Positions 5,561 to 57,745 of a DNA stretch of 64,000 bases are shown here, in pieces. Positions within the stretch are counted from its first letter, which is position 1; the number at the start of each line of letters is the position of its first letter. Under the pieces are notes generated by a model, which saw only the letters and a program-made list of their open reading frames with translations, made no database searches and was not told where the DNA came from. This DNA is from Candidatus Omnitrophota bacterium (GTDB taxonomy: Bacteria > Omnitrophota > Gorgyraeia > Duberdicusellales > 4484-171), in NCBI GenBank assembly GCA_003154195.1, contig PMCS01000029.1, positions 208,703-272,702 of the forward strand. Direction: 5' to 3'. A program made the position numbers and the translations under genes.

Positions 5561-5640
5561 GACAACCTAAAAACCAAGGAACCAAAAAACGGATAAACTA
5601 AGAAATTCTTAAGTTTTAGGTTTTTCAGTTTTTTGGTTTT

Positions 5641-6099
5641 TTGGTGCGAGCGAAGCGAGCAATGACTGACTTTACCACAACTCTTATTCGTATTTTATTA
5701 GCGTTTTTTTTAGGCGGAGCGATCGGCCTGGAACGTGAGAAAAAAGGCCACATCGCGGGCTTGCGCACGCATATTCTGGTGTGCCTCGGTTCCTGCCTGA
5801 TTATGCTTACCTCGATATACGTTTACGAGATTTATCAGGGTAAAGCCGGCGTTGACCCTTCGCGTATCGCCGCCGGCGTGGTTACCGGCATTGGATTCTT
5901 AGGCGCCGGCACGATTATCAGAAGCGCCAGAGGCTCGGAAGGCATCAAAGGGTTAACCACCGCGGCAAGCATCTGGGTAAGTTCCGCCATCGGCTTAGCC
6001 GTAGGCTGTGGTTATCTGAGCGGTGCGGTTGCAACCACCGTGGTAACTTTTTTAACGCTTTCTTTTTTGAAAACTATCGAGAACAAACTTCAGAAGTGA
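5641..6099 (+). CDS. MgtC/SapB family membrane protein
   Basis: 152 aa, multi-TM. Conserved MgtC N-terminal motif LGGAIGLEREKKGHIAGLRTHILVCLGSCL. Confidence 0.7.
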   Translation: MVRAKRAMTDFTTTLIRILLAFFLGGAIGLEREKKGHIAGLRTHILVCLGSCLIMLTSIYVYEIYQGKAGVDPSRIAAGVVTGIGFLGAGTIIRSARGSEGIKGLTTAASIWVSSAIGLAVGCGYLSGAVATTVVTFLTLSFLKTIENKLQK

Positions 6100-7067: not shown

Positions 7068-7151
7068 TAGTACCGAGGCCTGTTGTTCGAAGATATATAT
7101 TTTAACCGGCTCAACTGGCAAAACAGGCTAAACGGGCTAAACTGGATTATG

Positions 7152-8216
7152 AACAGCATTTATTTCCACTTAATCGGCGGCGCGGCCGGGGATATGCTTT
7201 TGGTGTCATTGCTTGAGCTGGGCTGTCCCCTTGTCTATTTAAAGAAAGAACTAAAAAAACTTAATATTGGCTGCGATCTTTCTTTAAAAATTGACGAGGC
7301 CACGCCTTGCCATGTCCCCAGGAAGAAACTAATTTTTAAAGGTAAAAACTTTTCCCGGCATCAAGAAATAGTAAGAGTAATCAAAAACTCCGGGCTTGAC
7401 GGGGATATTAAAACCAAAGCCCGGGAAGTTTACGGCGTAATCGCCACAGCGGAAGAAAAAATCCACAGGACTAAAAATATTCATTACCACCATCTCGGCG
7501 AGGTTGACGCGGTCGCGGAAATCTGCGGTTTTTTCATCGCCTTAAAATATCTGGCTGTGGAGCAGGTTTATGTTTCGGTATTTCCTTTGAGCAAACCCGC
7601 TCCGGCTGTCCTGGAATTATTGCGCGGCAAAAAAATCGGCATCCGGGAAGCCGGTTACGAAAGCGTTACCCCCACTGCCGCGGCTTTGCTTAAGGAGGCG
7701 ATACAGGCTGATTTACCTTTTGCTTTTAAAAAAAGCGGTTTGGCGTTTGGCGCCGGCGGCTCGGGCGATTATCTGGCCGCTTATCTTATCGACGAAACCC
7801 CGGAAAATGATACAATCATAAAGGTTGAGGTTAACATCGACGATATGAACCCTCAGCTTTTTGAAAATTGTTTTGAAAAGCTTTTCGCCGCCGGCGCCAA
7901 AGACGTTTACCTGGAAAATATCCTGATGAAGAAATCGCGGCCGGCGTTTGTCCTGAACGTCTTGTGCGCAAAAAATAATTTTCCGGAAATACGGAAAAGT
8001 ATTTTTTCTCACACTTCAACCTTCGGAATACGTTATTTGGAGTATAAGCGCGATAAATTGCCTTATGAGTTTGTAGAAAAGAATACTAAATTCGGCAAAA
8101 TAAAATTTCGCGTCGCGCGAGGAAGGATAAAAAAAGAAACACCGGAGTATAGCGATTGTCTTTCCGCCGCCACAAAATTAAACATACCGCTGATCGATAT
8201 CTATCGGGCGCTGTGA
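7152..8216 (+). CDS. larC: Nickel-pincer cofactor biosynthesis protein LarC (DUF111 nickel insertion protein)
   Basis: ORF-track frame opens at 7083, but that N-terminal extension translates a short repeat (ggctaaac motifs). The ATG at 7152 gives MNSIYFHLIGGAAGDMLL, typical of the LarC N-terminus. Confidence 0.75.
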   Translation, partial: NSIYFHLIGGAAGDMLLVSLLELGCPLVYLKKELKKLNIGCDLSLKIDEATPCHVPRKKLIFKGKNFSRHQEIVRVIKNSGLDGDIKTKAREVYGVIATAEEKIHRTKNIHYHHLGEVDAVAEICGFFIALKYLAVEQVYVSVFPLSKPAPAVLELLRGKKIGIREAGYESVTPTAAALLKEAIQADLPFAFKKSGLAFGAGGSGDYLAAYLIDETPENDTIIKVEVNIDDMNPQLFENCFEKLFAAGAKDVYLENILMKKSRPAFVLNVLCAKNNFPEIRKSIFSHTSTFGIRYLEYKRDKLPYEFVEKNTKFGKIKFRVARGRIKKETPEYSDCLSAATKLNIPLIDIYRAL

Positions 8217-8234
8217 GTAATAAAATATTAATGA

Positions 8235-8385
8235 AAACCTAAAGATTTACCACTAAGGCACAAAGTTCACAAAGAAAAAACCAAGATTAAGGTTTTATTT
8301 TTTTGATTTTACCCAAGACGAGATATATTTTTTTCTTTGTGACGCTTAGTGCCCTTAGTGTCTTGGTGGTAAATTTTTATGGTTT
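8235..8385. repeat. Intergenic hairpin element, copy B (same family as 3121-3250)
   Basis: tttaccactaaggcacaaagttcacaaagaaaaaacc paired with ttctttgtgacgcttagtgcccttagtgtcttggtggtaaa. Ends just before the RBS GAGGGAG and the ATG at 8405. Confidence 0.6.
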
Positions 8386-8404
8386 TGTTATTGAGGGAGA
8401 AAAG

Positions 8405-10102: not shown

Positions 10103-10356
10103 ATTATTTTCTGCTAAACTTGTAAAGAGTGTAAGAATAATTAAGGAAATTGAAAGATAAGAATTACACATGTAGGGCTTGTAGGAAATGTAGCGAAACA
10201 ATGCAAAATAATTTCTACATGTCCTAAATGCTCTACATGTAAAAATATCCTTATTTTTTTTGCGTGATGTATTGTTTTTATTAATAAACTTAGAAATACT
10301 TTTTAGGATATTAAAAACCGATATGGTGATATGTTGTATTGCAAAAGGGGGTGGAT

Positions 10357-11260: not shown

Positions 11261-11821
11261 AAAAATTTCACCACAGAGGGTATAGAAAAGTACCGAGGGA
11301 TGAATGATGATGGATGAAGGAAGATAGAAAACCAAAAAACTTTTGTCCTCAGATTACGCAGATTCTACAGATTGATTAACCGGATTTTTCTTTTAATATT
11401 ATCCCGATTTATATTTTTCTAAGAAATCTGTGAAATTAATAGTTTTGTAAATATAGGCTTGTTATTTTTCCTGTTTTTGTTATAATTCCCAGCTGTATTT
11501 ATATAGAGGCTAAGTTCCATCAACCAAGAGGCATTCAAATACTATGGCCATGCATATCTTCGTTTTTATCATCGTTATTTTACCATTAGTTTTGTGTTGG
11601 GTGCAAATGCTTTTAGATAAGTTTATGTAGGAATTCTTTCTTTCCCTCCGTTTAGAAAAACGTGGTAAATCGACTAAGCGTTTTTTCTTCATCTTCGATT
11701 AGGAAAAACGTGGCTTCATTGCCTGAAATCTGAGGTCGCGCTCTAAGCGCTTCCACGATTTCAGATAATTCGGCTACCAATTTTTGCTGCGTCTTAGACT
11801 TGCAAAAATTGAAGCCTCACT

Positions 11822-18822: not shown

Positions 18823-20335
18823 ATGGATTGTTGCCCTATCGGTTATTCTGCCTACACTGATCGAAGTCATTGATACTTCGGTCGTTAATGTTTCTTTAGA
18901 TCACATCCGCGGCAGCCTTTCCGCCGGCCTCGATGAATCTACCTGGACGATTACCGCTTATCTTGTTTCCAACGCCATCATCATCCCTATTACCGGCTGG
19001 CTCAGCCGCGTCTTCGGCCGCAAACGGTATCTGATTTTTTCCGTAGCTCTGTTTACCGCCAGTTCCTTTATGTGCGGAGCGTCTACTACTCTGGGCATGC
19101 TGATTTTTTTTCGGATCCTGCAGGGTATCGGCGGCGGCGCGCTGCAGCCGATTTCCCAGTCAATTCTCCTGGAGGCTTTTCCGGTAGCGGAGCACGGGAT
19201 GGCCATGGCGATTTTCGGCAGCGGCGTGATGTTCGGGCCGATTATCGGGCCGATGCTGGGCGGCTGGATTACCGACAATTGGTCGTGGAACTGGATCTTT
19301 TATATTAATATCCCCATCGGCATTCTGTCGATTGTCATGATCGGCTTGTTTATCCACGACCCGGTTTATTTAAAACGCACCAAGCAAAAAATCGATTTCC
19401 GGGGGTTAGGGCTGCTTGTGGTTGGCCTGGGTGCTTTGCAGGTTGTGCTCGATAAGGGCCAGCGGGAAGATTGGTTCTCTTCGGGTTTAATCGTAAGGTT
19501 GTCGCTTGTCGCGGCGGCCTGCCTCATCGCTTTTATTATCGTGGAGCTTCGTTCTCCCGAGCCGGTGGTCAAACTGCGGTTATTTAAAAATATTTCTTTC
19601 GCCGCCGGCAACCTCGTCCAATTTTTCGCCTTTTTTGTTTTATTCGGCAGCATCGTGCTTGTTCCTATATATTTACAGCAGTTAATGGGCTATACCGCTT
19701 ATCTGGCCGGGTTAGCCCTTGCTCCCGGCGGTATTGCCACTCTTTTTTCGATGCCCCTAGTCGGGATACTGGTCGCTAAATATAATCCCAAAGGGCTTAT
19801 GGTTTTTGGCATTATCGTTACGGCGTATTCGATGCTGATTATGTCTTCCTTCAGCTTGCAGACCGATTTAGACGCGATTTTATGGTCGCGTATCGTAATG
19901 GGTTTCGGTTTAAGTTTTGTGTTTATCCCTATGGTCACCATGACTCTTTCCGGCGTCCCTAAGGAGGAGATGGGTTATGCCACCGCCATTTTTAATCTTC
20001 TGCGTAATCTCGGCGGCAGTTTCGGCGTAGCGTTTATTACCACGATAGTTGCCCGGCGCGCCCAATTCCACCAGGCGCGTTTCGCGGAAAATTTAACCCC
20101 TTTTCATCTGCCCTATCGGGCCGCCGGCCAATTTGCCGGCAGGGTATTGCAATCAAAAGGAGTTTCGCCGGCCGCGGCCGACGGCATTATTTACCAGCGC
20201 TTGATTAGAGAATCGAACATGATGGCGTTTCGCGATACATTTTTTTTCTCCGCCGTAATTATGATTTCGGTTCTGCTCCTGGTGTTTTTTCTTAAGCGGC
20301 CCAAAGGCGCGCCGGCCGTTGGAGCGATGCATTAG
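18815..20335 (+). CDS. MFS drug:H+ antiporter, DHA2/EmrB-QacA family (14 TM)
   Basis: 506 aa. MFS motif GRKRYLIFSVALF, many TMs. Start overlaps the stop of the preceding membrane fusion gene. Confidence 0.85.
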   Translation: MSKWIVALSVILPTLIEVIDTSVVNVSLDHIRGSLSAGLDESTWTITAYLVSNAIIIPITGWLSRVFGRKRYLIFSVALFTASSFMCGASTTLGMLIFFRILQGIGGGALQPISQSILLEAFPVAEHGMAMAIFGSGVMFGPIIGPMLGGWITDNWSWNWIFYINIPIGILSIVMIGLFIHDPVYLKRTKQKIDFRGLGLLVVGLGALQVVLDKGQREDWFSSGLIVRLSLVAAACLIAFIIVELRSPEPVVKLRLFKNISFAAGNLVQFFAFFVLFGSIVLVPIYLQQLMGYTAYLAGLALAPGGIATLFSMPLVGILVAKYNPKGLMVFGIIVTAYSMLIMSSFSLQTDLDAILWSRIVMGFGLSFVFIPMVTMTLSGVPKEEMGYATAIFNLLRNLGGSFGVAFITTIVARRAQFHQARFAENLTPFHLPYRAAGQFAGRVLQSKGVSPAAADGIIYQRLIRESNMMAFRDTFFFSAVIMISVLLLVFFLKRPKGAPAVGAMH

Positions 20336-20397
20336 TTTCAAAATACCATCAAGAATTTTATGAAAAACAGGATGGAAACATGAAGAAATATCAAAGC

Positions 20398-20565
20398 AAC
20401 CACAGAGGTCTCAGAGAAGAACATGCCTCTCTGGGTTCTCTGAATGATAAAGAGTATTTTCTTCAATGGGTAACCGGGAGAATAATTTAAGAGTACACAG
20501 AGGAAGAAAGAGAAAAAACCGGTAATTTTTTATATTTTAATGATTTCTCTGGAGTCTCTGTGGTT
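20398..20565. mobile_element. MITE-like / structured element with ~21-bp terminal inverted repeats (copy 1)
   Basis: Termini aaccacagaggtctcagagaa ... ttctctggagtctctgtggtt, reverse complements with 2 mismatches. Internal second inverted pair around cacagagg. Sits about 35 nt upstream of the RBS of the 20605 gene. Confidence 0.5.
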
Positions 20566-20604
20566 AACTTTTGACAGAACGATTTTTAAATTAAGGAGGG
20601 CGCT

Positions 20605-21258
20605 ATGAAAATGAAATTGTTTATCGTTTTTTGTTTCGCGCTGCTGATTGTTGTTTGCGTTGCCGTTGCTTACGCGCAAAAGGCCAAATCAATCCGGCTT
20701 CTGCCGCCGCGGCTGGATAACGCTAAACCTTTGATGCAGTCGTTAAAGGAGAGGAAGTCGGGCCGCGAATTTAGTTCCCAGGAATTGCCTTTAGCGGTGT
20801 TGTCGGATATACTCTGGGCGGCTAACGGAATAAACCGGCCGGATTCGGGGCGCCGGACCGCGCCTTCCGCCATCAACATGCAGGAGATAGATATTTATGC
20901 CGCTAAGGCCGACGGGCTTTATTTATTCGACGCTAAAGAAAACGCGCTAAACTTAATTATAGCCCAGGATTTACGGGCTTTGACCGGCAGGCAGCCGTTC
21001 GCCGCAGACGCTCCCGTCAATCTTATTTATGTCGCCGACCTGTCTAAAATGAGTAAACTATCTGAAGAAGACCGAAACTTTTACTCCGCCACCGATACCG
21101 GCTTTATCAGCGAGAATGTTTACCTGTATTGCGCCGGCGCGGGATTGGTTACGGTAGTGCGCGGCGCGGTTGACCGGCCGGCTTTGGCGAAAGCGATGGG
21201 GTTACGGACCGACCAGAAGATAATTCTTGCCCAAACCGTGGGTTATCCCAAGCAGTAG
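20605..21258 (+). CDS. Nitroreductase-family / SagB-type dehydrogenase domain protein with signal peptide
   Basis: 217 aa. Signal peptide. Nitroreductase-like LSDILWAANGINRP ... IDIYAA...GLYLFD. Confidence 0.55.
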   Translation: MKMKLFIVFCFALLIVVCVAVAYAQKAKSIRLLPPRLDNAKPLMQSLKERKSGREFSSQELPLAVLSDILWAANGINRPDSGRRTAPSAINMQEIDIYAAKADGLYLFDAKENALNLIIAQDLRALTGRQPFAADAPVNLIYVADLSKMSKLSEEDRNFYSATDTGFISENVYLYCAGAGLVTVVRGAVDRPALAKAMGLRTDQKIILAQTVGYPKQ

Positions 21259-21718
21259 AAAGAAGAAGAAAGCGGCGAGACTGGGATAGGAAAATATCCG
21301 CGTACCGTCTATCGGATTTACTTTTTTAAAAATTGTGATAGGCTGAGACGGTGCGGTAAACTTGTGAGCGCGTAAGCGTGTGAGGAAATACCTTAAAAGG
21401 GAAGATAGGGGAAAGAGGGGAATTAAAATGAAAACACCGTTAAAAGTTTCCGGCGCGATTTTTTTGCTGGTATCCCTTTTGCATATTCTACGGCTCATTT
21501 TTAAAATTCCGGTGGCCGCGGCAGGTTATACCGTGCCGATGTTTTTCAGCGTTATCGGGGCGTTGGCTGCGCTGGTTCTGGCGGTATGGATGTTCAACTC
21601 GGCCCGGCAAGGTTCGAGCGCAGTTGAACAATGAAACTAAGCCCTGCCGCGTACGGCAGACCAAGTTTCATCGGCTCGAAGGGGTTGTTAAAAAATAACT
21701 ATACCGGTAAAATAATTT

Positions 21719-22819
21719 ATGACGGACAAAGCAAAAATCCTGGTAGTTGACGACGAGCCTTTAAATATAAAACTTCTGGAGGCGAACCTTTTGTCTCAGG
21801 GTTACGATGTTGTCGCCGCATCCAGCGGCCAAGATGCTTTAAAGATTCTTGAAGAAAACGATATTGATTTAGTCCTGCTCGATGTGATGATGCCGGGCCT
21901 TGACGGCATCGAGGTAGCCAAACGTATCCGCGCCAACGAAAAAACCAGCCTCCTGCCCATAGTGCTGGTTACTTCCTTAAGAGATATTTCCGACCGCATC
22001 AAAGGCATCGAAGCCGGAAGCGACGATTTTATTTCCAAGCCCTTCGATAAAGAAGAGTTACTTGCCCGGGTAAAATCTCTGTTGCGCATAAAATATCTGC
22101 ATGAGCAATTGCGGGAAAATTATCGCAAGCTTAAATCGCTGGAAGAAATGAAAGACAGCCTTACCCATATGATTGTCCACGATTTGAATAATCCCCTGGC
22201 GATTATTTTTCTCAAATGCCAGATTTTAGCGGACAGCCTGGGAGAAAAAATTACCGCTTCACAAAAAGAAGATATCAGCGATATCCTCGTTTCGGCGCGG
22301 GAATTAAAAAGGATGATCGGCAATATCCTTGATATCAATAAAATGGAAGAGGGGCGCTTGGCGTTGCGCCGGGAAAATTTTTCCTTAACGGATTTGGCCG
22401 CCGAAGTTGCCGAAGAAATGAAAATTACGGCCGGCCCGGCAGGACAATCTTTATCGGCGCAAGCGGCTTCCGCGATGCCGGAAATGTTTGCCGATAAAGA
22501 TCTGATCCGCCGGGCGATCATCAATCTGGTGAGCAACGCTTTAAAATTCACGCCCGAAGGGGGCCATATCGATATAATCTCTTCCTTTGACCCCGCCTCT
22601 AAAAAATTACGCGTCGAGGTTAAAGACAACGGAATCGGCATACCACAGGAATATCTCCAGAAAATTTTCGATAAATTTTTTCAGATAAACCATGATCAAA
22701 TAAGAGCCGGCCGAGGGCTGGGTTTGACTTTTTGCAGACTGGTCGTGGAGGCGCATGGCGGCTCTATCTGGGTGGAAAGCCGGGAGGGAAAAGGCAGCGC
22801 TTTTATCTTTACCATATAA
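21719..22819 (+). CDS. Hybrid response regulator / histidine kinase (REC-HisKA-HATPase)
   Basis: 366 aa. REC KILVVDDEPLN ... LDVMMPGLDG, H-box THMIVHDLNNPL, G-box GRGLGLTFCRLVVEAHGG. Confidence 0.8.
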   Translation: MTDKAKILVVDDEPLNIKLLEANLLSQGYDVVAASSGQDALKILEENDIDLVLLDVMMPGLDGIEVAKRIRANEKTSLLPIVLVTSLRDISDRIKGIEAGSDDFISKPFDKEELLARVKSLLRIKYLHEQLRENYRKLKSLEEMKDSLTHMIVHDLNNPLAIIFLKCQILADSLGEKITASQKEDISDILVSARELKRMIGNILDINKMEEGRLALRRENFSLTDLAAEVAEEMKITAGPAGQSLSAQAASAMPEMFADKDLIRRAIINLVSNALKFTPEGGHIDIISSFDPASKKLRVEVKDNGIGIPQEYLQKIFDKFFQINHDQIRAGRGLGLTFCRLVVEAHGGSIWVESREGKGSAFIFTI

Positions 22820-22846
22820 AAAAATTCGTCGCTACCGTAAAGGAAT

Positions 22847-25846
22847 ATGTTTAAATTTCTATCATTGCCTGAAAGAACCCCTCCCATGCCCTCCGGCCGG
22901 TTTACCCGGCGTTATTTCCAGATTGTTTTCATCATGGCTTCCGCCGTGATCATTTCTTCCTGTACGGTTATTGTTTATTACGCTTGCCGTCGCGTTTATC
23001 AGGAAAGAGATGTTTTATTCAAACAATATTTGCGCGATAACAAAAAATATTCCAACAGTTACCTGGAAAGCATGGCCAATAATATTAATTATCTGGCCGA
23101 TACTTTATCGGAAGGCGATTCCGGCAATAAGCCGGCGGCGGATGGCGCGGATACGGATATAAGGAAACGCCTGGAAAATATTTTCGCCCCGGTTTTAAAA
23201 GCAGAAGGCGACCGCATCGCGCAAATATTCTGCAGCGATAGAAACAGCCGCAAGGTTTTCACTTTTGAAAGCAAAGATAACGAATTAAAGGTTTCCGATG
23301 ACAACGGCTCATCTGCCGGTTTAAGCTTTAATAAAAAAGTAATCCTGTCCCCCGGCGTCGTTTATATGTCCCCGGTTTTTTTAGACCGGTCCGCGGCCAT
23401 TCCGGTAAAACCTTACGTTCCGGTGGTTGAATTTTCCCGGGGCCTTTTTGACGCCGCCGGAAAACCTACCGGAGTGATCGGTATAAGATTCAGCGTCAAA
23501 AGTATTATCCGTGTCTTTCAGTCCATCAGGAGTATGCCTGACGCCGAAGTATTTATCGCCGATGCCAAAGGGTATTATTTACGTAACGGCGACAATCAAA
23601 AAGAATGGGGTGCGCCGCGCGATTTAGGTACCCGGTGGAATGTTAAGAAAGATTTCCCTTTCTATTACCGGGAAATTCTCAACCAGGAAAGCGGATTTAT
23701 TTATGACCGCGATAAAAAACAATATATATATTTTTCCAGTTTCTCTCCTTATTCCGCTTCTCAAGATAAGTGGATCGTCGCTGCTGTGGTGGCGCGGAAT
23801 AAATTTTTTACCCCTTTGTATAAAACTGCCGGCATAACAACTCTTGGTTTTTTGGCCCTGTTTTTTCTTATCTTCGCGTTGCTGCGCCACGCCGAAAACC
23901 AGATTTTAAAATACGCCGGGGAGCTGGAAGAGCAAAAAAACACGTTACAGAACAGCTACGTATTCTTACAAAGGATCATCGACAGCATGCCTAATCCCGT
24001 TTTTTACCAGGATTCTTGCGGGCAGTGCCTTGGCTGTAATATCGCTTTTCAGGATTATTTCGGGATCAAAAAAGAAACAATCATCGGCCGCCGCGTTTAT
24101 GATATCCTGCCGGTAGAAGATCCGCAAGGATTTTGCGAACAGGACGCGGCACTTTTACTGGAAGACAATAAGCGGTCGGCCGGCGCGGCTAAAGTCCGGC
24201 GCGCCGACAAAAATTTTCGCGACGTGATTTTTTATAAAGCAAGTTATCGGCAGGGCCATGGCGAGCGCAACGGCGTAGTCAGCGTCATGATCGATGTCAC
24301 CGAAAGGAATATCCTGGAGCAAAATTTAGCGCAGGCTAAGGAATCTGCCGAATCGGCCAGCCGCGCCAAAAGCGCGTTTCTGGCGGCGATGTCCCATGAA
24401 TTACGTACGCCCTTAAACGCGATTATCGGTTTTTCCGAGTTGTTGGCCGGCGAAAGTTTCGGCAAATTACTCGATAAACAAAAAGAATATATCAATGATA
24501 TTTGGAGCAGCGGCAAACATTTGCTGGCCTTGATCAACGATATCCTTGATCTTTCCAAGATCGAAGCGGGAAAATTAGAGCTGCATCTGGATGAGATTGA
24601 TTTAAAAAATATTTTGGAATCAAGTTTTGTGATGATCAAAGAAAAAGCGTATCGCCAGGGCATAGCCCTTATTCTGGACGTTGCCGACGGCATCGCAAAA
24701 GTTGAAGCCGACGAGCAGAAAATAAAACAGGTCATGTACAATCTTCTTTCCAACGCCGTAAAGTTTACCCCCCAGGGAGGAAAAATCGGCGTGGTCGCGG
24801 CAAAGTCCAGCGAAAACAATATCCTTGTTTCGGTATGGGATACGGGGATCGGCATCGAAGACAAAGACAAAGACAAGATTTTTAAGGAATTCATGCAGAT
24901 CGACAATACCCTTACCCGCCAATTCGCCGGGACCGGCCTGGGCCTGGCGCTGGTTAAAAAAATAATCGAGCTTCACGGCGGGAAAATTTGGTTCGAAAGC
25001 GCGGGGAAGAACCAGGGCGTTAAATTCAGTTTTACTATTCCGCAGATAAAATTGGACCGGCTTAGTTACGCCGGAATCGCAGGAAAAATCGATGCCGTTA
25101 AACTCAAGCCCAGCCCTTTGACGGTTTTTATGCTCCACTGGGATAATTATGACCGGTTTGCCGGCAGCGCCGACATAACAAAAATCAATAGCGCGTTTTT
25201 CGGCCTTAAGAAAGATTTCAGCGAAATTGCCCAACTCGAAGATTTTATCATTGATAACAACAATGCGATTATCGCGCTCGCCTCCCTTGATAAGAATGCC
25301 GCGCCGAAAGCGGCGAAAGCTTTTCTTCAGGAGGTAAAAAAAGCCATTTTTGATTTCGACAACAGCTTTGAGGCCGAATTCTCTTACGGATTTTCCACTT
25401 ACCCCGATGACGGGAAAAATTTTGATGAGCTGGCGCGTAAGGCAAAAGAAAATTATCTTAACGAGCGAGGCTTAAGATTGCAGAAAAGGATAATGATCAT
25501 CGATGACGAACCGGCGGTGTTAAACGCTACAAAAAATACTCTGAAGCAGTTCGGCTATAGTAACTTTGACAGCGCCTATAGCGGCGCGGACGCCCTGGGA
25601 AAAATAGAGATAAACCATCCGGAGTTGATCATCCTTGATATACAAATGCCCGGGATGAGCGGTTATGAATTTATCGGAAGGATTAAAGAGAATACCCATA
25701 CGCAGGCAATCCCGATTTTAATTATTTCCGGTTATCACGTGGAAATGGCGCGAATCAGCGAGTACATAAAAAATAAAGCTATTCCGATTCTGGGTAAACC
25801 TTTCGAAGCCAACCAGGTGGCGAAGCTGGTGTGGTATTTGTTGTAA
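22847..25846 (+). CDS. Large hybrid sensor histidine kinase (TM, Cache/PAS-like sensor, HisKA, HATPase, C-terminal REC)
   Basis: 999 aa. H-box MSHELRTPLNAIIGFSELL, G-box GTGLGLALVKKIIELHGG, C-terminal REC IMIIDDEPAV ... LDIQMPGMSG. Confidence 0.8.
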   Translation: MFKFLSLPERTPPMPSGRFTRRYFQIVFIMASAVIISSCTVIVYYACRRVYQERDVLFKQYLRDNKKYSNSYLESMANNINYLADTLSEGDSGNKPAADGADTDIRKRLENIFAPVLKAEGDRIAQIFCSDRNSRKVFTFESKDNELKVSDDNGSSAGLSFNKKVILSPGVVYMSPVFLDRSAAIPVKPYVPVVEFSRGLFDAAGKPTGVIGIRFSVKSIIRVFQSIRSMPDAEVFIADAKGYYLRNGDNQKEWGAPRDLGTRWNVKKDFPFYYREILNQESGFIYDRDKKQYIYFSSFSPYSASQDKWIVAAVVARNKFFTPLYKTAGITTLGFLALFFLIFALLRHAENQILKYAGELEEQKNTLQNSYVFLQRIIDSMPNPVFYQDSCGQCLGCNIAFQDYFGIKKETIIGRRVYDILPVEDPQGFCEQDAALLLEDNKRSAGAAKVRRADKNFRDVIFYKASYRQGHGERNGVVSVMIDVTERNILEQNLAQAKESAESASRAKSAFLAAMSHELRTPLNAIIGFSELLAGESFGKLLDKQKEYINDIWSSGKHLLALINDILDLSKIEAGKLELHLDEIDLKNILESSFVMIKEKAYRQGIALILDVADGIAKVEADEQKIKQVMYNLLSNAVKFTPQGGKIGVVAAKSSENNILVSVWDTGIGIEDKDKDKIFKEFMQIDNTLTRQFAGTGLGLALVKKIIELHGGKIWFESAGKNQGVKFSFTIPQIKLDRLSYAGIAGKIDAVKLKPSPLTVFMLHWDNYDRFAGSADITKINSAFFGLKKDFSEIAQLEDFIIDNNNAIIALASLDKNAAPKAAKAFLQEVKKAIFDFDNSFEAEFSYGFSTYPDDGKNFDELARKAKENYLNERGLRLQKRIMIIDDEPAVLNATKNTLKQFGYSNFDSAYSGADALGKIEINHPELIILDIQMPGMSGYEFIGRIKENTHTQAIPILIISGYHVEMARISEYIKNKAIPILGKPFEANQVAKLVWYLL

Positions 25847-25852
25847 AAGAAT

Positions 25853-26257
25853 ATGAAAACATGCCCGGTTTGTTTTAAAGAATTTAGCGGTAACGCCGGT
25901 ATCTGCGATGAATGCTTTATTGTAACCAGAAGAAAGAAGCTAAATGAGTTGTCGAAACGTTTCACGTTGTTGCTTTTAATCGCCGCCTTGATTTACGCCA
26001 ACAGCAAAGACATGGAGGGGGCAGGCAATTATATCCGGCGCCGGTCAAAACGAGCGGCGGCTGATTTTAGTAAATTATGGGATGCCTTGAAAGAAATGCC
26101 CCGGGATTTCCTGCGGGGCGTTAATTCACGGGACAGTTTTACCGGGGAGCCGGGTTATCTTAAGGGCCGGGGAGAACGCCCGCGCAATATATCTCCTGGC
26201 GATTTGGGAGGGGGCGGAATCGAAAATTTTACCCGGCAAGTGTATAGTGGTAATTAA
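25853..26257 (+). CDS. Hypothetical protein with N-terminal zinc-ribbon-like CxxC...CxxC
   Basis: 134 aa. CPVCFKEFSGNAGICDEC followed by a TM-like segment. Confidence 0.35.
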   Translation: MKTCPVCFKEFSGNAGICDECFIVTRRKKLNELSKRFTLLLLIAALIYANSKDMEGAGNYIRRRSKRAAADFSKLWDALKEMPRDFLRGVNSRDSFTGEPGYLKGRGERPRNISPGDLGGGGIENFTRQVYSGN

Positions 26258-26283
26258 GGTAGCGTCAAATAGAATATGAAGGC

Positions 26284-26569
26284 AACCACAGAGTTCACAG
26301 AGGGGAAATTAAACCTCTGTGTTCTCGAAGAAATGGACAAAGGCGATAAAAACACCATTGTCCATAGATATTTCTCAAAATTACTCTTAAAAAAATAAAA
26401 GATAACAGAGTTGCCAAATCATCTGACAAATTTTTATAATGTTGCTGGTTTTTGGTTTGCGTGTCCCGACTACACCAAAGTATTATTTTTTGGTCTGTTT
26501 TAAGAGTGCACAGAGGGGGGATACCATAATTCATTGATATTTAATAATTTCTCTGTGACCTCTGTGGTT
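26284..26569. mobile_element. MITE-like / structured element with ~19-bp terminal inverted repeats (copy 2 of the 20398-20565 family)
   Basis: Termini aaccacagagttcacagag ... ctctgtgacctctgtggtt, plus a nested inner inverted pair acctctgtgttctc / gagtgcacagaggg. Ends about 35 nt upstream of the RBS of the cupin gene. Confidence 0.5.
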
Positions 26570-26607
26570 TATTTTTACAAAATGATTAGATAAGGGAGGG
26601 AAGAGAT

Positions 26608-31882: not shown

Positions 31883-32000
31883 AAATACTATGCGAATCAA
31901 ATCACAAATTACAAATACCAAATCCCAAATTTCCACCTTTTGCGGGATTGCGCTGAACCAGCATAATAAAGAGCGGGAAAATCCCAGTATCAAAATACAA

Positions 32001-33038
32001 ATGACCAAAACCAAAACATCTATTGTTTGGAATTTGAAATTTGGAGCTTGGAATTTATTTGGTGCTTGGTGCTTGGTGCTTGGGATTTGTATTTTTTTAC
32101 AATCGCCGGTGTTCGGCGAGGCGGATAAGGCCGATATCGCACGTCATTATCGCCTGGGGCGTATCTATTATGAAAACGGCCTTTACGAAGATGCTCAAAG
32201 AGAGTTTAAGAAGGCCATGAATGTGCCGGATAATAATATGCTTAATGATTCTGAGCAAGCGCAAATTCTACCGGCAAGAGACGTTGTCCCGCCGGCCGCT
32301 TCTCCGGCCCCGGCGCAACAAGTAAAAAATATAATGCCGGGGACGGGGACAGATGGTATAGACCATAAGATAAATAAGGAAACCCCGGCCCCCGCCGTGT
32401 TGGTTTCCCAGCCCGATGCCGTTTCTCCCGCCGGCGATTATATCATCGGGCCGGGGGATACTCTTTCCGTAAGCGTATGGGAAAACAGCGACCTTGATAA
32501 GGAAGTAATTGTCCGGCCCGACGGGAAAATTTCCTTCCCCTTAATCGACGATGCTGTTGCCGCGGGGTTGGCCATTCCTCAGTTGAGGGGAGTCATTACC
32601 GCAAAGCTCAGCGAATTTATTCGTTACCCCCAGGTAGTCGTTTCTTTAAGGGCGATCGGCGGCAATAAAATCATTGTGCTGGGCGAGGTCGGCCATCCCG
32701 GAGTTTTTTCCCTTAGCGAGCAGAAAAGCGTTCTGGAAGCGGTAGCTTTGGCCGGAGGTTTTACCAAAGACGCAGTGCTCGACAGTGTTATCGTCATAAA
32801 GGGCGGTTTAAAAAATCCGCAGGCGATGCGGGTTAATCTTACTAAAGCTTTGATCCGGGCCAATATGAAAGAAAATGTTCTCCTGGTTTCCCAGGATATC
32901 GTTTATGTTCCCAGAAGATTTATCGCCAACCTCAGTTATTTTTTAAACCAGATTCTTGACCCGATCTCCAAAGGTGCTTCTATCTATCAACAATTTCAGA
33001 CCTTGGGGGTTACAACCACCACGACCGTAACCCAATAG
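32001..33038 (+). CDS. Wza/KpsD-like polysaccharide export protein (Poly_export + SLBB domains)
   Basis: GDYIIGPGDTLSVSVWENSDL ... VRPDGKISFPLIDDAVAAGL ... IIVLGEVGHPGVF. ORF-track frame opens at 31890, but that N-terminus translates a simple-sequence inverted repeat. The ATG at 32001 gives a signal-like segment. Confidence 0.7.
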   Translation: MTKTKTSIVWNLKFGAWNLFGAWCLVLGICIFLQSPVFGEADKADIARHYRLGRIYYENGLYEDAQREFKKAMNVPDNNMLNDSEQAQILPARDVVPPAASPAPAQQVKNIMPGTGTDGIDHKINKETPAPAVLVSQPDAVSPAGDYIIGPGDTLSVSVWENSDLDKEVIVRPDGKISFPLIDDAVAAGLAIPQLRGVITAKLSEFIRYPQVVVSLRAIGGNKIIVLGEVGHPGVFSLSEQKSVLEAVALAGGFTKDAVLDSVIVIKGGLKNPQAMRVNLTKALIRANMKENVLLVSQDIVYVPRRFIANLSYFLNQILDPISKGASIYQQFQTLGVTTTTTVTQ

Positions 33039-34944: not shown

Positions 34945-35483
34945 TTTAAAAACCCATATTGTACTGATTATAACATGTGCCGTCGGCGCTTTGCTGCGTT
35001 TCTATAAGATCGACGAACGTTGTTATTCCGGCGACGCTATCGCCTGGATACCGGTCGGCGTGCATTTTCTTAGGGATTTCGGCACGCTGTTGGCCGGCGA
35101 GGGTTTTAGCCGCGTACCGTTAAAAATCGGCCCCCTGGGAAATATTCTGTTTATACAATCAACGGGAATGTCAAAGGAAAGAATTTGTCGATAGCTGTGA
35201 CGATATTGCTTCTATCATATGTTTATGAGAAAAAAGCAAATTAAAAATAGTTGGGCTAGTTAGGTCGGTTGAGCCAGTTGTAGTGTTGGAATCTTTCAAC
35301 AGCCTCGACAGTCCCAACGGTTGAACGGGCTAAACAGGTCCAACAGGCTAAACAATCAAATGCTTCATAACCGTATCTACATTTTTTTCAGGCTTTTAAT
35401 ATCCGGAAAAATAAAATATATTTACGCGAGTTTCCGCCGCCGATTTATTTTTTATTTCCGTAAAAATTACTTCAAAAAACAAA

Positions 35484-57599: not shown

Positions 57600-57745
57600 T
57601 TTAGGATATCAGGGGATCAGGATATCGGGATTTGGGGATTAGGGAATCGGGAGATTAGGAAAAATACCCAAGAGGCGATAGCCGGCTACCAAATATCCCA
57701 ATCTCCTCATTTCCCGATCCCGATTTCCTGATATTCCAATCCCCT
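57600..57745. repeat. Long imperfect hairpin built from GGGA(T)/ATCCC-type simple repeats
   Basis: Left arm aggatatcaggggatcaggatatcgggatttggggattagggaatcgggagattagg. Right arm cccaatctcctcatttcccgatcccgatttcctgatattccaatcccc is its approximate reverse complement. Loop is about 30 nt. Intergenic. Confidence 0.5.

What the first reader, a model, noticed from the sequence alone, without database searches (positions are those of the whole stretch)
20398..26569. Two MITE-like elements with ~20-bp terminal inverted repeats and nested inner inverted repeats, each about 35 nt upstream of the RBS of a small gene
Copy 1 (20398-20565, 168 bp) has termini aaccacagaggtctcagagaa / ttctctggagtctctgtggtt. 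Copy 2 (26284-26569, 286 bp) has termini aaccacagagttcacagag / ctctgtgacctctgtggtt. Both have a second internal inverted pair built on cacagagg. They precede a nitroreductase-family gene and a cupin gene respectively, each with a strong RBS.
They could be miniature transposable elements. Alternatively they are a shared structured 5' leader (cis-regulatory RNA) co-regulating the two genes.
Basis: seen in the sequence. Interest (0 to 1): 0.55.

Follow-up and report, generated by a model that had tools for sequence, protein, structure and literature searches.

The report
Decayed copies of GxxExxY mobile cassette
The two repeats are worn-down, gene-less copies of a small, apparently undescribed transposable cassette that in intact form carries one nuclease-like gene (GxxExxY) between hairpins built from CACAGAG repeats; they are not a shared regulatory leader.

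Summary
CACAGAG occurs 10 times in the window against about 1 expected, and 9 of those lie in the two elements.

Related metagenome copies place the true ends further out, at 13-bp inverted repeats GGTAMTGTCAAAA...TTTTGACAATACS. That makes copy 1 20342-20581 and copy 2 26258-26584.

Family members carry perfect 8-9-bp target-site duplications (5 cases; 0 of 198 mismatched control pairs reach 7/8). Right ends lie 20-27 nt before a start codon in 23 of 26 assessable cases, and 23 nt in both window copies.

Longer relatives hold fragments of a GxxExxY/PDDEXK_3 gene. Intact 546-bp elements encode only this 138-aa protein, and one identical protein sits on 16 contigs with several different flanks.

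GxxExxY genes in Bacteroides, Bernardetia, Gemmatirosa, Sphingomonas and Treponema are also flanked by inverted arms of tandem 8-9-nt units.

Nitroreductase orthologues lack the element, and the downstream genes are diverse, so a shared leader is not supported.

The window copies are internal-deletion relics in a Candidatus Omnitrophota genome. What moves the family is unknown.

The parts
20334..20341 (+). Copy 1 left flank AGTTTCAA, a possible degenerate target-site duplication
   Evidence: Matches 6 of 8 with ATTTTTAA at 20582-20589, read. In the family the junction positions are fixed by perfect TSDs.
20342..20354 (+). Copy 1 left terminal inverted repeat (AATACCATCAAGA, 8/13 to consensus GGTAMTGTCAAAA)
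   Evidence: Family alignment. The left-end profile built without the window hits 20349-20448 at E 6.8e-10.
20355..20397 (+). Copy 1 relic of the cassette's 5' leader (TTTTATGAAAAA, RBS-like stretch, ATG at 20380), with a 13-nt insertion before the arm
   Evidence: Aligns with TTTYATGAAAA-RBS-ATGRA of intact elements.
20380..20490 (+). Copy 1 relic ORF of 36 aa, MKKYQSNHRGLREEHASLGSLNDKEYFLQWVTGRII
   Evidence: Its tail SLGSLNDKEYFLQWVTGRII aligns with SVVSLAQKEFPLKDVTERII, the N-terminal part of GxxExxY protein P0319 (E 0.71, so positional support only). No Pfam match. It is called as a gene in public assemblies.
20398..20442 (+). Copy 1 left hairpin: outer arm 20398-20418, stem 20403-17 / 20428-42, tandem 9-nt CACAGAGnn units
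20496..20565 (+). Copy 1 right hairpin (CACAGAGG...TTCTCTGGAGTCTCTGTGGTT)
   Evidence: The right-end profile hits 20476-20576 at E 5e-13.
20569..20581 (+). Copy 1 right terminal inverted repeat (TTTTGACAGAACG, 11/13)
   Evidence: The start codon of the nitroreductase gene (20605) follows after 23 nt.
26258..26270 (+). Copy 2 left terminal inverted repeat (GGTAGCGTCAAAT, 10/13), starting at the base after the stop codon of ORF 25853-26257
26276..26398 (+). Copy 2 relic ORF of 40 aa, beginning MKATTEFTEG (the common T-T-E frame of the arm)
   Evidence: No Pfam match.
26284..26326 (+). Copy 2 left hairpin: outer arm 26284-26302, stem 26291-303 / 26314-26
   Evidence: The left-end profile hits 26280-26331 at E 1.5e-6.
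26411..26440 (+). Sigma-70-like promoter match inside the copy 2 core (TTGCCA-18-TATAAT, 11/12), facing the cupin gene
   Evidence: This is a consensus match only, and the scan as a whole was not enriched over shuffles.
26503..26569 (+). Copy 2 right hairpin (AGAGTGCACAGAGGGG...TTCTCTGTGACCTCTGTGGTT)
   Evidence: The right-end profile hits 26500-26576 at E 6.3e-13.
26572..26584 (+). Copy 2 right terminal inverted repeat (TTTTTACAAAATG, 10/13)
   Evidence: The start codon of the cupin gene (26608) follows after 23 nt.

Best explanation
Both loci are decayed, non-coding internal-deletion derivatives (MITE-like) of a roughly 546-bp transposable cassette.

Layout of the intact cassette, in order:
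- 13-bp left TIR (GGTAMTGTCAAAA)
- short leader with RBS and ATG
- left hairpin made of tandem CACAGAG/CGCAGAG 9-nt units, lying in codons 2-15
- a 138-aa GxxExxY (PDDEXK_3, PD-(D/E)XK fold) ORF
- right hairpin of the same units just after the stop codon
- 13-bp right TIR (TTTTGACAATACS)

Shown:
- The family inserts with 8-bp (sometimes 9-bp) target duplications.
- Insertion is orientation-specific, with the right TIR ending 20-27 nt upstream of a gene's start codon.
- In the window both copies sit in what were tight intercistronic junctions, MFS|nitroreductase and ORF134|cupin.

Inferred:
- Transposition is catalysed either in trans by an unidentified DDE transposase (the left TIR weakly resembles IS6-family ends, and the 8-bp duplication fits that family) or, less likely, by the GxxExxY nuclease itself.
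- The window copies have eroded TIRs (8-11 of 13) and are probably immobile.
- Their remaining effect, if any, is as transcribed structured spacers. The right hairpin shows sense-strand G.U bias, which is compatible with an RNA processing or stabilising role. Copy 2 may supply a promoter.
For: Family membership:
- Profile HMMs built only from metagenome copies hit copy 1 (right end E 5e-13, left end E 6.8e-10) and copy 2 (6.3e-13, 1.5e-6).
- The full-length alignment supports the same assignment.

TIRs and TSDs:
- Perfect 8/8 duplications abut the TIRs in L151, L256, L276 and L280. L178 has a 9-bp duplication and L209 matches 7/8.
- 0 of 198 mismatched control pairs reach 7/8.

Recent mobility:
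- The identical 138-aa protein P0258 lies on 16 contigs, with at least 4 left and 5 right flank contexts.

Gene origin:
- The L228 core matches PF13366 positions 73-117 of 117 (E 1.3e-13) and TIGR04256 (54 bits, cut-off 35).
- Other cores carry N- or C-terminal relics.
- A reconstructed full-length query finds 7995 proteins at E <= 1e-10. The top hits are 138 aa at 100% coverage and include the hairpin-encoded N-terminus MKPQRxQRxTLCS.
- The intact element is seen in L270.

Target position:
- RBS plus start plus ORF follow 23 of 26 assessable right ends. The gap is 23 nt in both window copies.

Cross-phylum link of GxxExxY genes with inverted tandem-unit arms.

Not a conserved leader.
Against: - No empty-site orthologue of either window locus was available. 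All 10 public contigs of this population carry identical elements, so insertion at these two sites is inferred from the family, not observed.
- Copy 1's flanks match only 6/8 and copy 2 has no clear TSD.
- No significant GxxExxY remnant survives in the window copies (E 0.71).
- No transposase-bearing element with these TIRs was found in the loci held.
- Metagenome contigs through the repeats are partly chimeric.
- The same CACAGAG arm occurs singly at the 5' ends of unrelated phage genes with no GxxExxY gene nearby. The arm module therefore has a life of its own that this model does not explain.
Confidence: 0.8

Rival explanations
1. A shared structured 5' leader (cis-regulatory RNA) that co-regulates the nitroreductase and cupin genes.
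For: - Both copies lie directly upstream of the RBS in the sense orientation.
- They fold better than shuffles (z -2.8 for each).
- In the family the right hairpin is more stable on the sense strand (33 against 4, p 3.5e-6; G.U pairs 177 against 61).
- Many downstream genes are small redox enzymes.
Against: - Nitroreductase orthologues in L139 and L140 lack it.
- Downstream genes span CoA-transferase, protease, HicB, DsrE, ADH, AKR, rubrerythrin and others.
- Target-site duplications and TIRs show insertion.
- There is no Rfam match.
- Only 1 of 14 right-hairpin pairs shows a compensatory change.
Confidence: 0.05
2. Invertible promoter segments (invertons) flanked by recombinase-recognised inverted repeats, giving phase-variable expression.
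For: - Inverted repeats bracket 170-290-bp segments just upstream of genes.
- The copy 2 core holds an 11/12 sigma-70-like promoter facing the gene.
Against: - All 10 independent contigs have the same orientation and sequence.
- The arms are parts of a TIR/TSD transposon whose long forms hold a gene, not a promoter.
- No recombinase lies in the neighbourhood.
Confidence: 0.03
3. REP/REPIN-type or IS200/IS605-derived palindromic elements mobilised as single-stranded hairpins by a Y1 HUH transposase (RAYT/TnpA).
For: - Two subterminal hairpins flank a small gene, as the left-end and right-end hairpins flank genes in IS200/IS605 and as REPs flank RAYT genes.
- Solo hairpins and nested hairpins occur.
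Against: - 8-bp target duplications and TIRs are present, which IS200/IS605 and REPINs do not make (established knowledge).
- There is no GTAG/CGTC tag.
- The only associated gene has a PD-(D/E)XK fold, not HUH.
Confidence: 0.04
4. Locally evolved intergenic hairpins (terminators or mRNA stabilisers) with no mobile origin, whose similarity comes from convergent simple repeats.
For: - A T-run follows the right arm in both copies and in sibling hairpins of the window.
- The window holds at least five other hairpins with arms of different tandem units.
Against: - About 240 nt of ordered homology to family profiles.
- Identical arms occur in genomes from 40% to 73% GC and in five phyla.
- TSDs are present.
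- Loops of 35-250 nt do not fit intrinsic terminators (one search lists none here).
Confidence: 0.05

Closest known systems
MITEs such as Correia/NEMIS elements of Neisseria
   Same: - Small, non-coding and dispersed, with TIRs and target duplications.
- They sit next to gene starts, are co-transcribed, and form long hairpins that can be RNase III substrates or carry promoters (established knowledge; reviewed in PMC3184786).
   Different: - The long form carries no recognised transposase, only a GxxExxY gene.
- The TSD is 8 bp, not TA.
- Subterminal hairpins are built from tandem 9-nt units.
- The right end lies at a fixed distance from the downstream start codon.
Mobile insertion cassettes (MICs, e.g. 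MIC231 of Bacillus cereus)
   Same: IS-type ends enclose a passenger gene that is not a transposase, and the unit is presumed to be moved in trans (from my own knowledge, not checked here).
   Different: - No partner IS was identified.
- The passenger here is always the same nuclease-fold gene and is structurally integrated with the end hairpins.
REPIN-RAYT systems
   Same: A hairpin-repeat family is associated with a small nuclease-type gene that is itself flanked by the repeats in inverted orientation. Solo hairpins are far more numerous than the gene (PMC3116915).
   Different: - The protein has a PD-(D/E)XK fold, not HUH.
- Many gene copies are found.
- TIRs and TSDs are present.
- The arms are tandem repeats rather than palindromic REPs with a GTAG tag (PMC3733652).
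IS6/IS26 family ends
   Same: - 8-bp duplication (my knowledge).
- The published IS6-family IR GGTTCTGTTGCAAAGTTTTAAATC (PMC2920175) aligns with GGTACTGTCAAAAGTTTCATGAAA at a score that 0.6-1% of shuffles reach.
   Different: - The resemblance is weak and needs gaps.
- The right TIR does not reach significance (p 0.14).
- No IS6 transposase was seen.
- The family moves by cointegrates, which makes MITE derivatives unusual.
ORF-bearing intervening sequences of 23S rRNA (e.g. Coxiella IVS)
   Same: A small selfish element carries one short ORF enclosed by complementary arms that form an RNase III-cleaved stem in the transcript (PMC4990558, abstract).
   Different: - Those sit in rRNA helices and encode S23p, not GxxExxY.
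- No TIR or TSD is reported for them.
- RNase III processing of the present elements is untested.

Membership tests
MITE | Small size (under about 600 bp) and no transposase coding capacity | tested here: met
   Copy 1 is 240 bp and copy 2 is 327 bp. The relic ORFs have no Pfam match, and there is no significant tblastn match to GxxExxY.
MITE | Terminal inverted repeats | tested here: met
   13-bp TIRs in the family. Window copies match the consensus at 8/13, 11/13, 10/13 and 10/13.
MITE | Target-site duplications | tested here: met
   Family: 8/8 in L151, L256, L276 and L280; 9 bp in L178; 7/8 in L209; controls 0 of 198 at 7/8 or better. Window: copy 1 6/8, copy 2 none, so this is inconclusive for the two loci themselves.
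MITE | Many dispersed copies | tested here: met
28 canonical right ends lie next to different genes.
MITE | An autonomous partner with the same TIRs that encodes a transposase | tested here: inconclusive
   The only full-length form encodes a GxxExxY protein. No TIR pair enclosing a larger ORF was found in the loci held. Whole genomes could not be scanned.
GxxExxY / PDDEXK_3 gene cassette | Significant match to PF13366 / TIGR04256 | tested here: not met
   Not met for the window copies. Met for family members L228 and for the intact proteins P0241-P0360. The window copies are therefore derivatives, not members of the protein family.
REP / REPIN | GTAG or CGTC tag next to a short palindrome, and an associated RAYT | tested here: not met
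   The sequence lacks the tag. No HUH gene lies near the elements.
IS200/IS605-derived PATE | No TIRs and no target duplication; Y1 transposase partner | tested here: not met
   TIRs and TSDs are present.
Curated RNA families (Rfam 15) | Covariance-model match at or near the gathering score | tested here: not met
   Only one tRNA in the window at the gathering score. The best E-values over the two elements are 0.28-9 with bit scores far below cut-offs.
Inverton | Both orientations of the IR-flanked segment present in a population | tested here: not met
   Ten contigs from different samples are identical in orientation. Assemblies show only the majority state, so this is a weak test.
Integron attC site | R''/R' core sites RYYYAAC...GTTRRRY | tested here: not met
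   The ends read GCAACC...GGTTAA and GGTTTA, and the wider consensus is ATTAACC. Neither fits the core.
IS6 family non-autonomous derivative | IS6-type IR and an IS6 DDE transposase acting on it | tested here: inconclusive
   The left TIR resembles the IS6 IR (p 0.006-0.01 against shuffles). The right TIR does not (p 0.14). The transposase was not testable.

The most novel reading that the evidence does not exclude
The 138-aa GxxExxY PD-(D/E)XK protein may itself be the mobility enzyme (transposase or homing-type nuclease) of the 546-bp element, acting on the CACAGAG-unit hairpins and TIRs. That would make this a minimal autonomous transposon of a new mechanistic class. It would also explain two things:
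- why GxxExxY genes across phyla are flanked by lineage-specific tandem-unit inverted repeats;
- why solo hairpins of these units litter many genomes and phages.
Probability: 0.2. Interest if true: 0.85.

Novelty: new variant of a known kind. Interest (0 to 1): 0.62.

Why it matters
GxxExxY/PDDEXK_3 is a very large protein family with no known function. The one survey I found lists it as 'Unknown', with multiple horizontal transfers (PMC3424549).

The CACAGAG-type repeats generate countless spurious small ORFs in metagenome annotation, such as MKxxTTEDTE and LCVLCG peptides.

Tying both to one TIR/TSD-bounded mobile cassette has four consequences:
- It gives the protein family a testable biological context.
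- It explains a widespread class of intergenic hairpins and 'hypothetical proteins'.
- It identifies an element that inserts at a nearly fixed distance upstream of start codons, often inside operons, and so can rewire gene expression.
- It offers a candidate for a very small autonomous transposon.

For the window itself the practical message is modest. The two repeats are relics, and the small ORFs called in them in public assemblies are not genes.

Tried and rejected
- **Genome-contig scan:** It gave 6 unrelated coding hits, each with a single CACAGAG, so no genome-wide copy count or taxon list could be made.
- **Rfam:** Gathering and permissive searches found nothing.
- **Literature:** Searches for the repeat sequence found only eukaryotic primers. 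A keyword search on Bacteroides repeats found nothing pertinent. The cyanobacterial SDR paper (Elhai 2008) is not held, so a relation to SDRs was not checked.
- **Inverton:** Rejected.
- **Other ideas set aside on the sequence alone:**
  - An integron attC site does not fit the end sequences.
  - A DnaA-box array was considered because TTAACCACA resembles TTATCCACA, but the resemblance is confined to the first unit.
  - CsrA GGA-motif or TRAP GAG-repeat binding sites were considered, but both orientations occur.
  - The TTGACA inside the right TIR is not a -35 element for the downstream gene, because the RBS sits where the -10 would be.
- **Intrinsic terminator:** No canonical terminator was found at either element.
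- **Protein function:**
  - The PDB sequence search gave nothing relevant.
  - The structure model (pLDDT 69) matched only generic PD-(D/E)XK nucleases, none at E <= 0.001.
  - PADLOC gave weak Cas4-core similarity only, and PHROGs gave none.
- **Partner transposase:** The search for a transposase between TIR pairs in the held loci was negative.
- **Phage loci:** No GxxExxY gene lies in the 1 Mb of phage loci carrying the arm.
Full report
**1. The observation**

The quoted sequences are present at the stated coordinates.
- The outer inverted pairs are 20398-20418/20545-20565 (21 nt, 81% complementary) and 26284-26313/26540-26569 (30 nt, 80%).
- Each element also has a left hairpin (20403-17/20428-42; 26291-303/26314-26) and a right hairpin (around 20496-20565; 26503-15/26551-63).
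- The arms are tandem 9-nt units of the form CACAGAGnn.
- CACAGAG occurs 10 times in the window against 1.07 expected, and 9 of those lie in the two elements. The double unit occurs 4 times against 0.02 expected.
- The downstream genes are a Nitroreductase-family and a Cupin_3 protein.

**2. The arm motif is not private to this window**

- A third unit that was not in the search pattern is conserved in the hits (C 98, A 96, C 105 ... G 109 of 125). This gives a sharp ~31-nt consensus, (A/T)TTAACCACAGAGRACACAGAGRRCACRGAG.
- BLAST found the same arms as perfect hairpins in Bacteroides finegoldii, with loops that are unrelated between copies.
- It found 19 and 25 places on the two megaplasmids of Gemmatirosa kalamazoonensis (73% GC). 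There CACAGAG hairpins lie nested inside CGCAGAG hairpins.
- It also found tandem arrays in Pseudoalteromonas.

The window itself comes from a Candidatus Omnitrophota population in peat and wetland metagenomes.
- The best homologues of its nitroreductase are named Omnitrophota.
- The same locus lies on 23 public contigs, including NCBI GCA_003154645.1.
- In ten of these contigs the two intergenic regions are identical apart from one substitution.

**3. The real element**

Two recurrent contexts appeared.
- One is like the window's right ends: ...GAGGGCACAGAGGGGAGG..~35 nt..ATTTCTCTGkGTTCTCTGTGGTT-Ann-TTTTGACAATAC, followed by an RBS and a start codon.
- The other, read on the opposite strand, is GGTACTGTCAAAAnTTTTATGAAAAA-RBS-ATGRA|ACCACAGAGnnCGCAGAGAAAt-aCTCTGTGTCCTC.

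Several contigs carry both ends 120-550 bp apart. Aligning full copies with the window copies gives one architecture:
- left TIR GGTAMTGTCAAAA
- leader with RBS and ATG
- left hairpin
- variable core
- conserved ~110-nt right part with the right hairpin
- right TIR TTTTGACAATACS

Profile HMMs built only from metagenome copies find copy 1 at E 5e-13 (right part, 20476-20576) and 6.8e-10 (left part, 20349-20448). They find copy 2 at 6.3e-13 and 1.5e-6.

**4. It is a transposable element**

Immediately outside the 13-bp TIRs there are direct repeats:
- AATTAATA (L151), CATTTTAA (L256), AGCATTTC (L276) and AAAATATT (L280), all 8/8
- TATATTGAG (L178, 9 bp)
- ACCTTCAG/T (L209, 7/8)

Among 198 mismatched left/right pairs none reaches 7/8.

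One identical 138-aa protein (P0258) lies on 16 contigs, inside 546-bp elements that are nearly identical from TIR to TIR but have several different flanks. Some of those contigs are evidently chimeric across the repeat. For example, the left flank of L274/L277 pairs by its 8-mer with the right flank of L279.

**5. It derives from a GxxExxY gene**

- The cores of longer copies are gene fragments. L228 reads ...VELKAVDTMNKIYEAQLLTYLKALNKRVGLLINFNEVKLKDGIKRMII*, ending just before the right hairpin. This matches PF13366 PDDEXK_3 positions 73-117 of 117 (E 1.3e-13) and TIGR04256 GxxExxY (54 bits, cut-off 35).
- L151, L158 and L199 keep the N-terminal part (..ITERIISCALEVHSTLGP..).
- A first search with the fragment returned only truncated calls of 40-84 aa.
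- A full-length sequence reconstructed from the relics finds 7995 proteins at E <= 1e-10. The best are 138 aa at 100% coverage and about 80% identity. They include the N-terminus MKPQRxQRxTLCS, which is the translation of the left hairpin.
- Intact elements are seen in L270 (between two ABC-transporter genes), in L272-L279 and in L280.

**6. The window copies are relics**

- Copy 1 keeps the left hairpin plus ...DKEYFLQWVTGRII*. This aligns with ...QKEFPLKDVTERII of the intact protein (weak on its own, but in the right place). It then jumps to the right part, so it is an internal deletion.
- Copy 2 has lost part of the leader, and its core no longer resembles the gene.
- Their TIRs match the consensus at 8, 11, 10 and 10 of 13 positions.
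- Copy 1's flanks match 6/8 (AGTTTCAA/ATTTTTAA). Copy 2 has no clear duplication.

**7. Position**

- In 23 of 26 assessable family members an RBS, a start codon and an ORF follow the right TIR. The start lies 20-27 nt after the TIR end (allowing for the 2-nt offset of the search expression).
- In both window copies the gap is 23 nt.
- The upstream context is variable. A co-directional gene end is present in 9 of 18 cases, a divergent gene in 3, and neither in 6.
- In the window, copy 2's left TIR starts at the base after the stop codon of ORF 25853-26257. Copy 1's left TIR starts 7 nt after the MFS stop.
- Removing the elements leaves spacers of only about 15-30 nt. Both therefore sit in former tight operon junctions (an inference from coordinates).
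- The downstream genes are unrelated: CoA-transferase III, rubrerythrin, HtrA-like protease, Thioredoxin_3, HicB-like, FMN reductase, Zn-ADH, DsrE and aldo/keto reductase, plus nitroreductase and cupin here.
- Nitroreductase orthologues at 68-73% identity in two other Omnitrophota contigs have ordinary short upstream regions without the element.

This rules out a gene-family-specific leader.

**8. Hairpins**

- Across 37 family members the right hairpin is more stable on the sense strand than on its complement (mean -23.9 against -18.0 kcal/mol; 33 against 4; Wilcoxon p 3.5e-6). It has 177 G.U pairs against 61. The left hairpin shows no bias.
- The consensus right stem has 14 pairs. Five are predominantly G.U, and only one shows a compensatory change, because the sequence is too conserved to test covariation.
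- My reading, which is an inference, is that the right hairpin is selected as RNA in the transcript that also carries the downstream gene, for processing or 5'-end stabilisation.
- It is not a canonical terminator (loop about 40 nt).
- Copy 2's core has a TTGCCA-18-TATAAT match facing the cupin gene. This is a consensus match only.

**9. The wider link**

tblastn of a family protein against plasmid records found seven GxxExxY genes in other phyla. Five are bracketed by inverted arms of tandem units:
- B. finegoldii: TTCACCACAGAGGACGCAGAGGACACGGAGG...CTCTGTGACCTCTGTGTCCTCTGTGGTGAA, between radA and the next gene
- Bernardetia: CACAGAG units
- Gemmatirosa: complete CGCAGAG hairpins on both sides
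- Sphingomonas: TTCACGCGAAGGCGCGAGG.../...CCTCGCGCCTTCGCGTGAA, inserted between fabD and fabG
- Treponema: ACACGGATTCG/CGAATCCGTGT

The Fusobacteria gene has direct repeats instead, and Persicobacter is unclear.

So the gene-between-hairpins design is general, and the unit sequence is lineage-specific. The TIR/TSD layer was seen only in the Omnitrophota/Nitrospirota-type family.

**10. What moves it**

- The structure model of P0241 (pLDDT 69; the hairpin-encoded residues 1-18 are disordered) resembles only generic PD-(D/E)XK nucleases: lambda exonuclease, MGME1, the R2 endonuclease domain and the homing endonuclease I-Bth0305I core. None reaches E <= 0.001.
- TIRs with 8-bp duplications are the signature of DDE transposition (established knowledge), and no such gene is in the element.
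- The left TIR weakly resembles the IS6-family IR quoted in PMC2920175 (score reached by 0.6-1% of shuffles). The right TIR does not.
- I therefore favour trans-mobilisation by an unidentified transposase (a MIC/MITE relationship). I keep autonomy through the GxxExxY nuclease as the novel alternative, at about 0.2.

**11. Unexplained residue**

- The single arm sits at codons 3-12 of many unrelated phage ORFs with good RBSs (M-x-x-L-T-T-E-D-T-E...).
- In one phage group it marks a mosaic junction. A conserved upstream gene is followed by GTG plus the arm, and then by one of three unrelated small ORFs or none. A second, similar RBS-GTGAGCG copy lies in front of the next gene.
- L271 shows an intact GxxExxY gene without a left TIR, flanked by a 26-bp duplication that includes the RBS and ATG of hisG.
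- These cases suggest a second mode of spread that duplicates translation-start regions. I could not resolve it.

**12. Literature**

- I found no paper on GxxExxY function. Steczkiewicz et al. list PDDEXK_3 as 'Unknown' with multiple transfers (PMC3424549).
- I found no description of these repeats.
- My recollection that TIGR04256 members occur in 23S rRNA intervening sequences could not be checked. The Coxiella IVS (PMC4990558) is cited only as an analogue.

**13. Limits**

- The taxa of most family contigs are unknown.
- No empty site was available for the two window loci.
- Metagenome assemblies across repeats are partly chimeric.

Noticed in passing
window 5565-5645; 8215-8390; 10168-10240; 31890-32100; 57604-57745; 11266-11380: At least five further intergenic hairpins share the general design (arms of 2-6 tandem 7-9-nt units, AT-rich loop, right arm close to the next RBS) but use other unit sequences: AACCAAAA, CACTAAGG/CACAAAG, ATGTAGGnn, CAAATCn and GGATnnnG. 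There is also a single CACCACAGAGG arm followed by GGATGAA and CAGATTnnn repeats. Several are preceded by ATGAA. They may be relics of sister cassettes.
   Followed up: partly
L001-L120 (IMG/VR contigs), e.g. L009, L013, L021, L056, L068, L116: The 31-nt arm TTAACCACAGAGGACACAGAGRRCACRGAG lies right after the start codon of many unrelated phage ORFs with good RBSs. These include DUF551-like ORFs and others that look by eye like a DNA methylase and a PD-(D/E)XK nuclease (no family search was run on them). In one phage group the arm marks a mosaic junction where three different small ORFs, or none, follow it, with a second RBS-GTGAGCG copy in front of the next gene. No GxxExxY gene lies in these loci.
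   Followed up: partly
L271 1960-2540: An intact GxxExxY gene with a right TIR but no left TIR is flanked by a 26-bp direct duplication, TTTTTTTATCAGGGTGAAAATATGAA, that includes the RBS and start codon of hisG. Both genes therefore keep a translation start.
   Followed up: partly
L270 3470-3530: A 35-bp palindromic insert (CCCCCGTTAGATAGTAAACATCTAACGGGGTGAAT) sits inside the right arm of an intact element, with CTGTGGTT duplicated on both sides. This looks like a second, even smaller mobile hairpin with an 8-bp duplication.
   Followed up: no
L141 4340-4560 and 19970-20200; L142 19970-20800: In Gemmatirosa (73% GC), ~50% GC CACAGAG hairpins are nested in the loops of CGCAGAG hairpins as a repeated composite. 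In Pseudoalteromonas, CACAGAG hairpins form tandem arrays with a ~240/450-bp period beside a dnd/dpt phosphorothioation island.
   Followed up: partly
L115 3630-3970 and 6400-6730: A viral contig carries arrays of complete CCCAGAG/CACAGAG hairpins at a regular 153-bp spacing.
   Followed up: no
L267 (Sphingomonas parapaucimobilis plasmid) 372-840: A GxxExxY gene with CGCGAAGG-unit inverted arms is inserted between fabD and fabG, co-oriented with them. The right arm forms the last codons of the ORF.
   Followed up: partly
L280 400-480; proteins P0319, P0325, P0329, P0339: Some intact elements have a longer left hairpin of the Bacteroides type (TTTCACCACAGAGCACACAGAG...CTCTGTGAACTCTGTTG) after a residual ACCACAG. 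This gives N-termini such as MKPQNFTTEHTEKK...NSVNSVVS, and suggests that hairpin modules are exchanged or inserted in frame.
   Followed up: partly
window 26411-26440: A near-consensus sigma-70-type promoter match (TTGCCA-18-TATAAT, 11/12) lies inside the copy 2 core and points at the cupin gene.
   Followed up: no
family right ends in L143-L262: Many genes directly downstream of family members are small redox or stress enzymes: rubrerythrin, Thioredoxin_3, FMN reductase, ADH, AKR and DsrE, with nitroreductase and cupin in the window. Whether this exceeds the background of these genomes was not tested.
   Followed up: no
window 7104-7142 and 35324-35354: The same 9-nt tandem repeat AACAGGCTA (4.3 and 3.4 copies) occurs at two distant places, apparently inside ORFs.
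   Followed up: no
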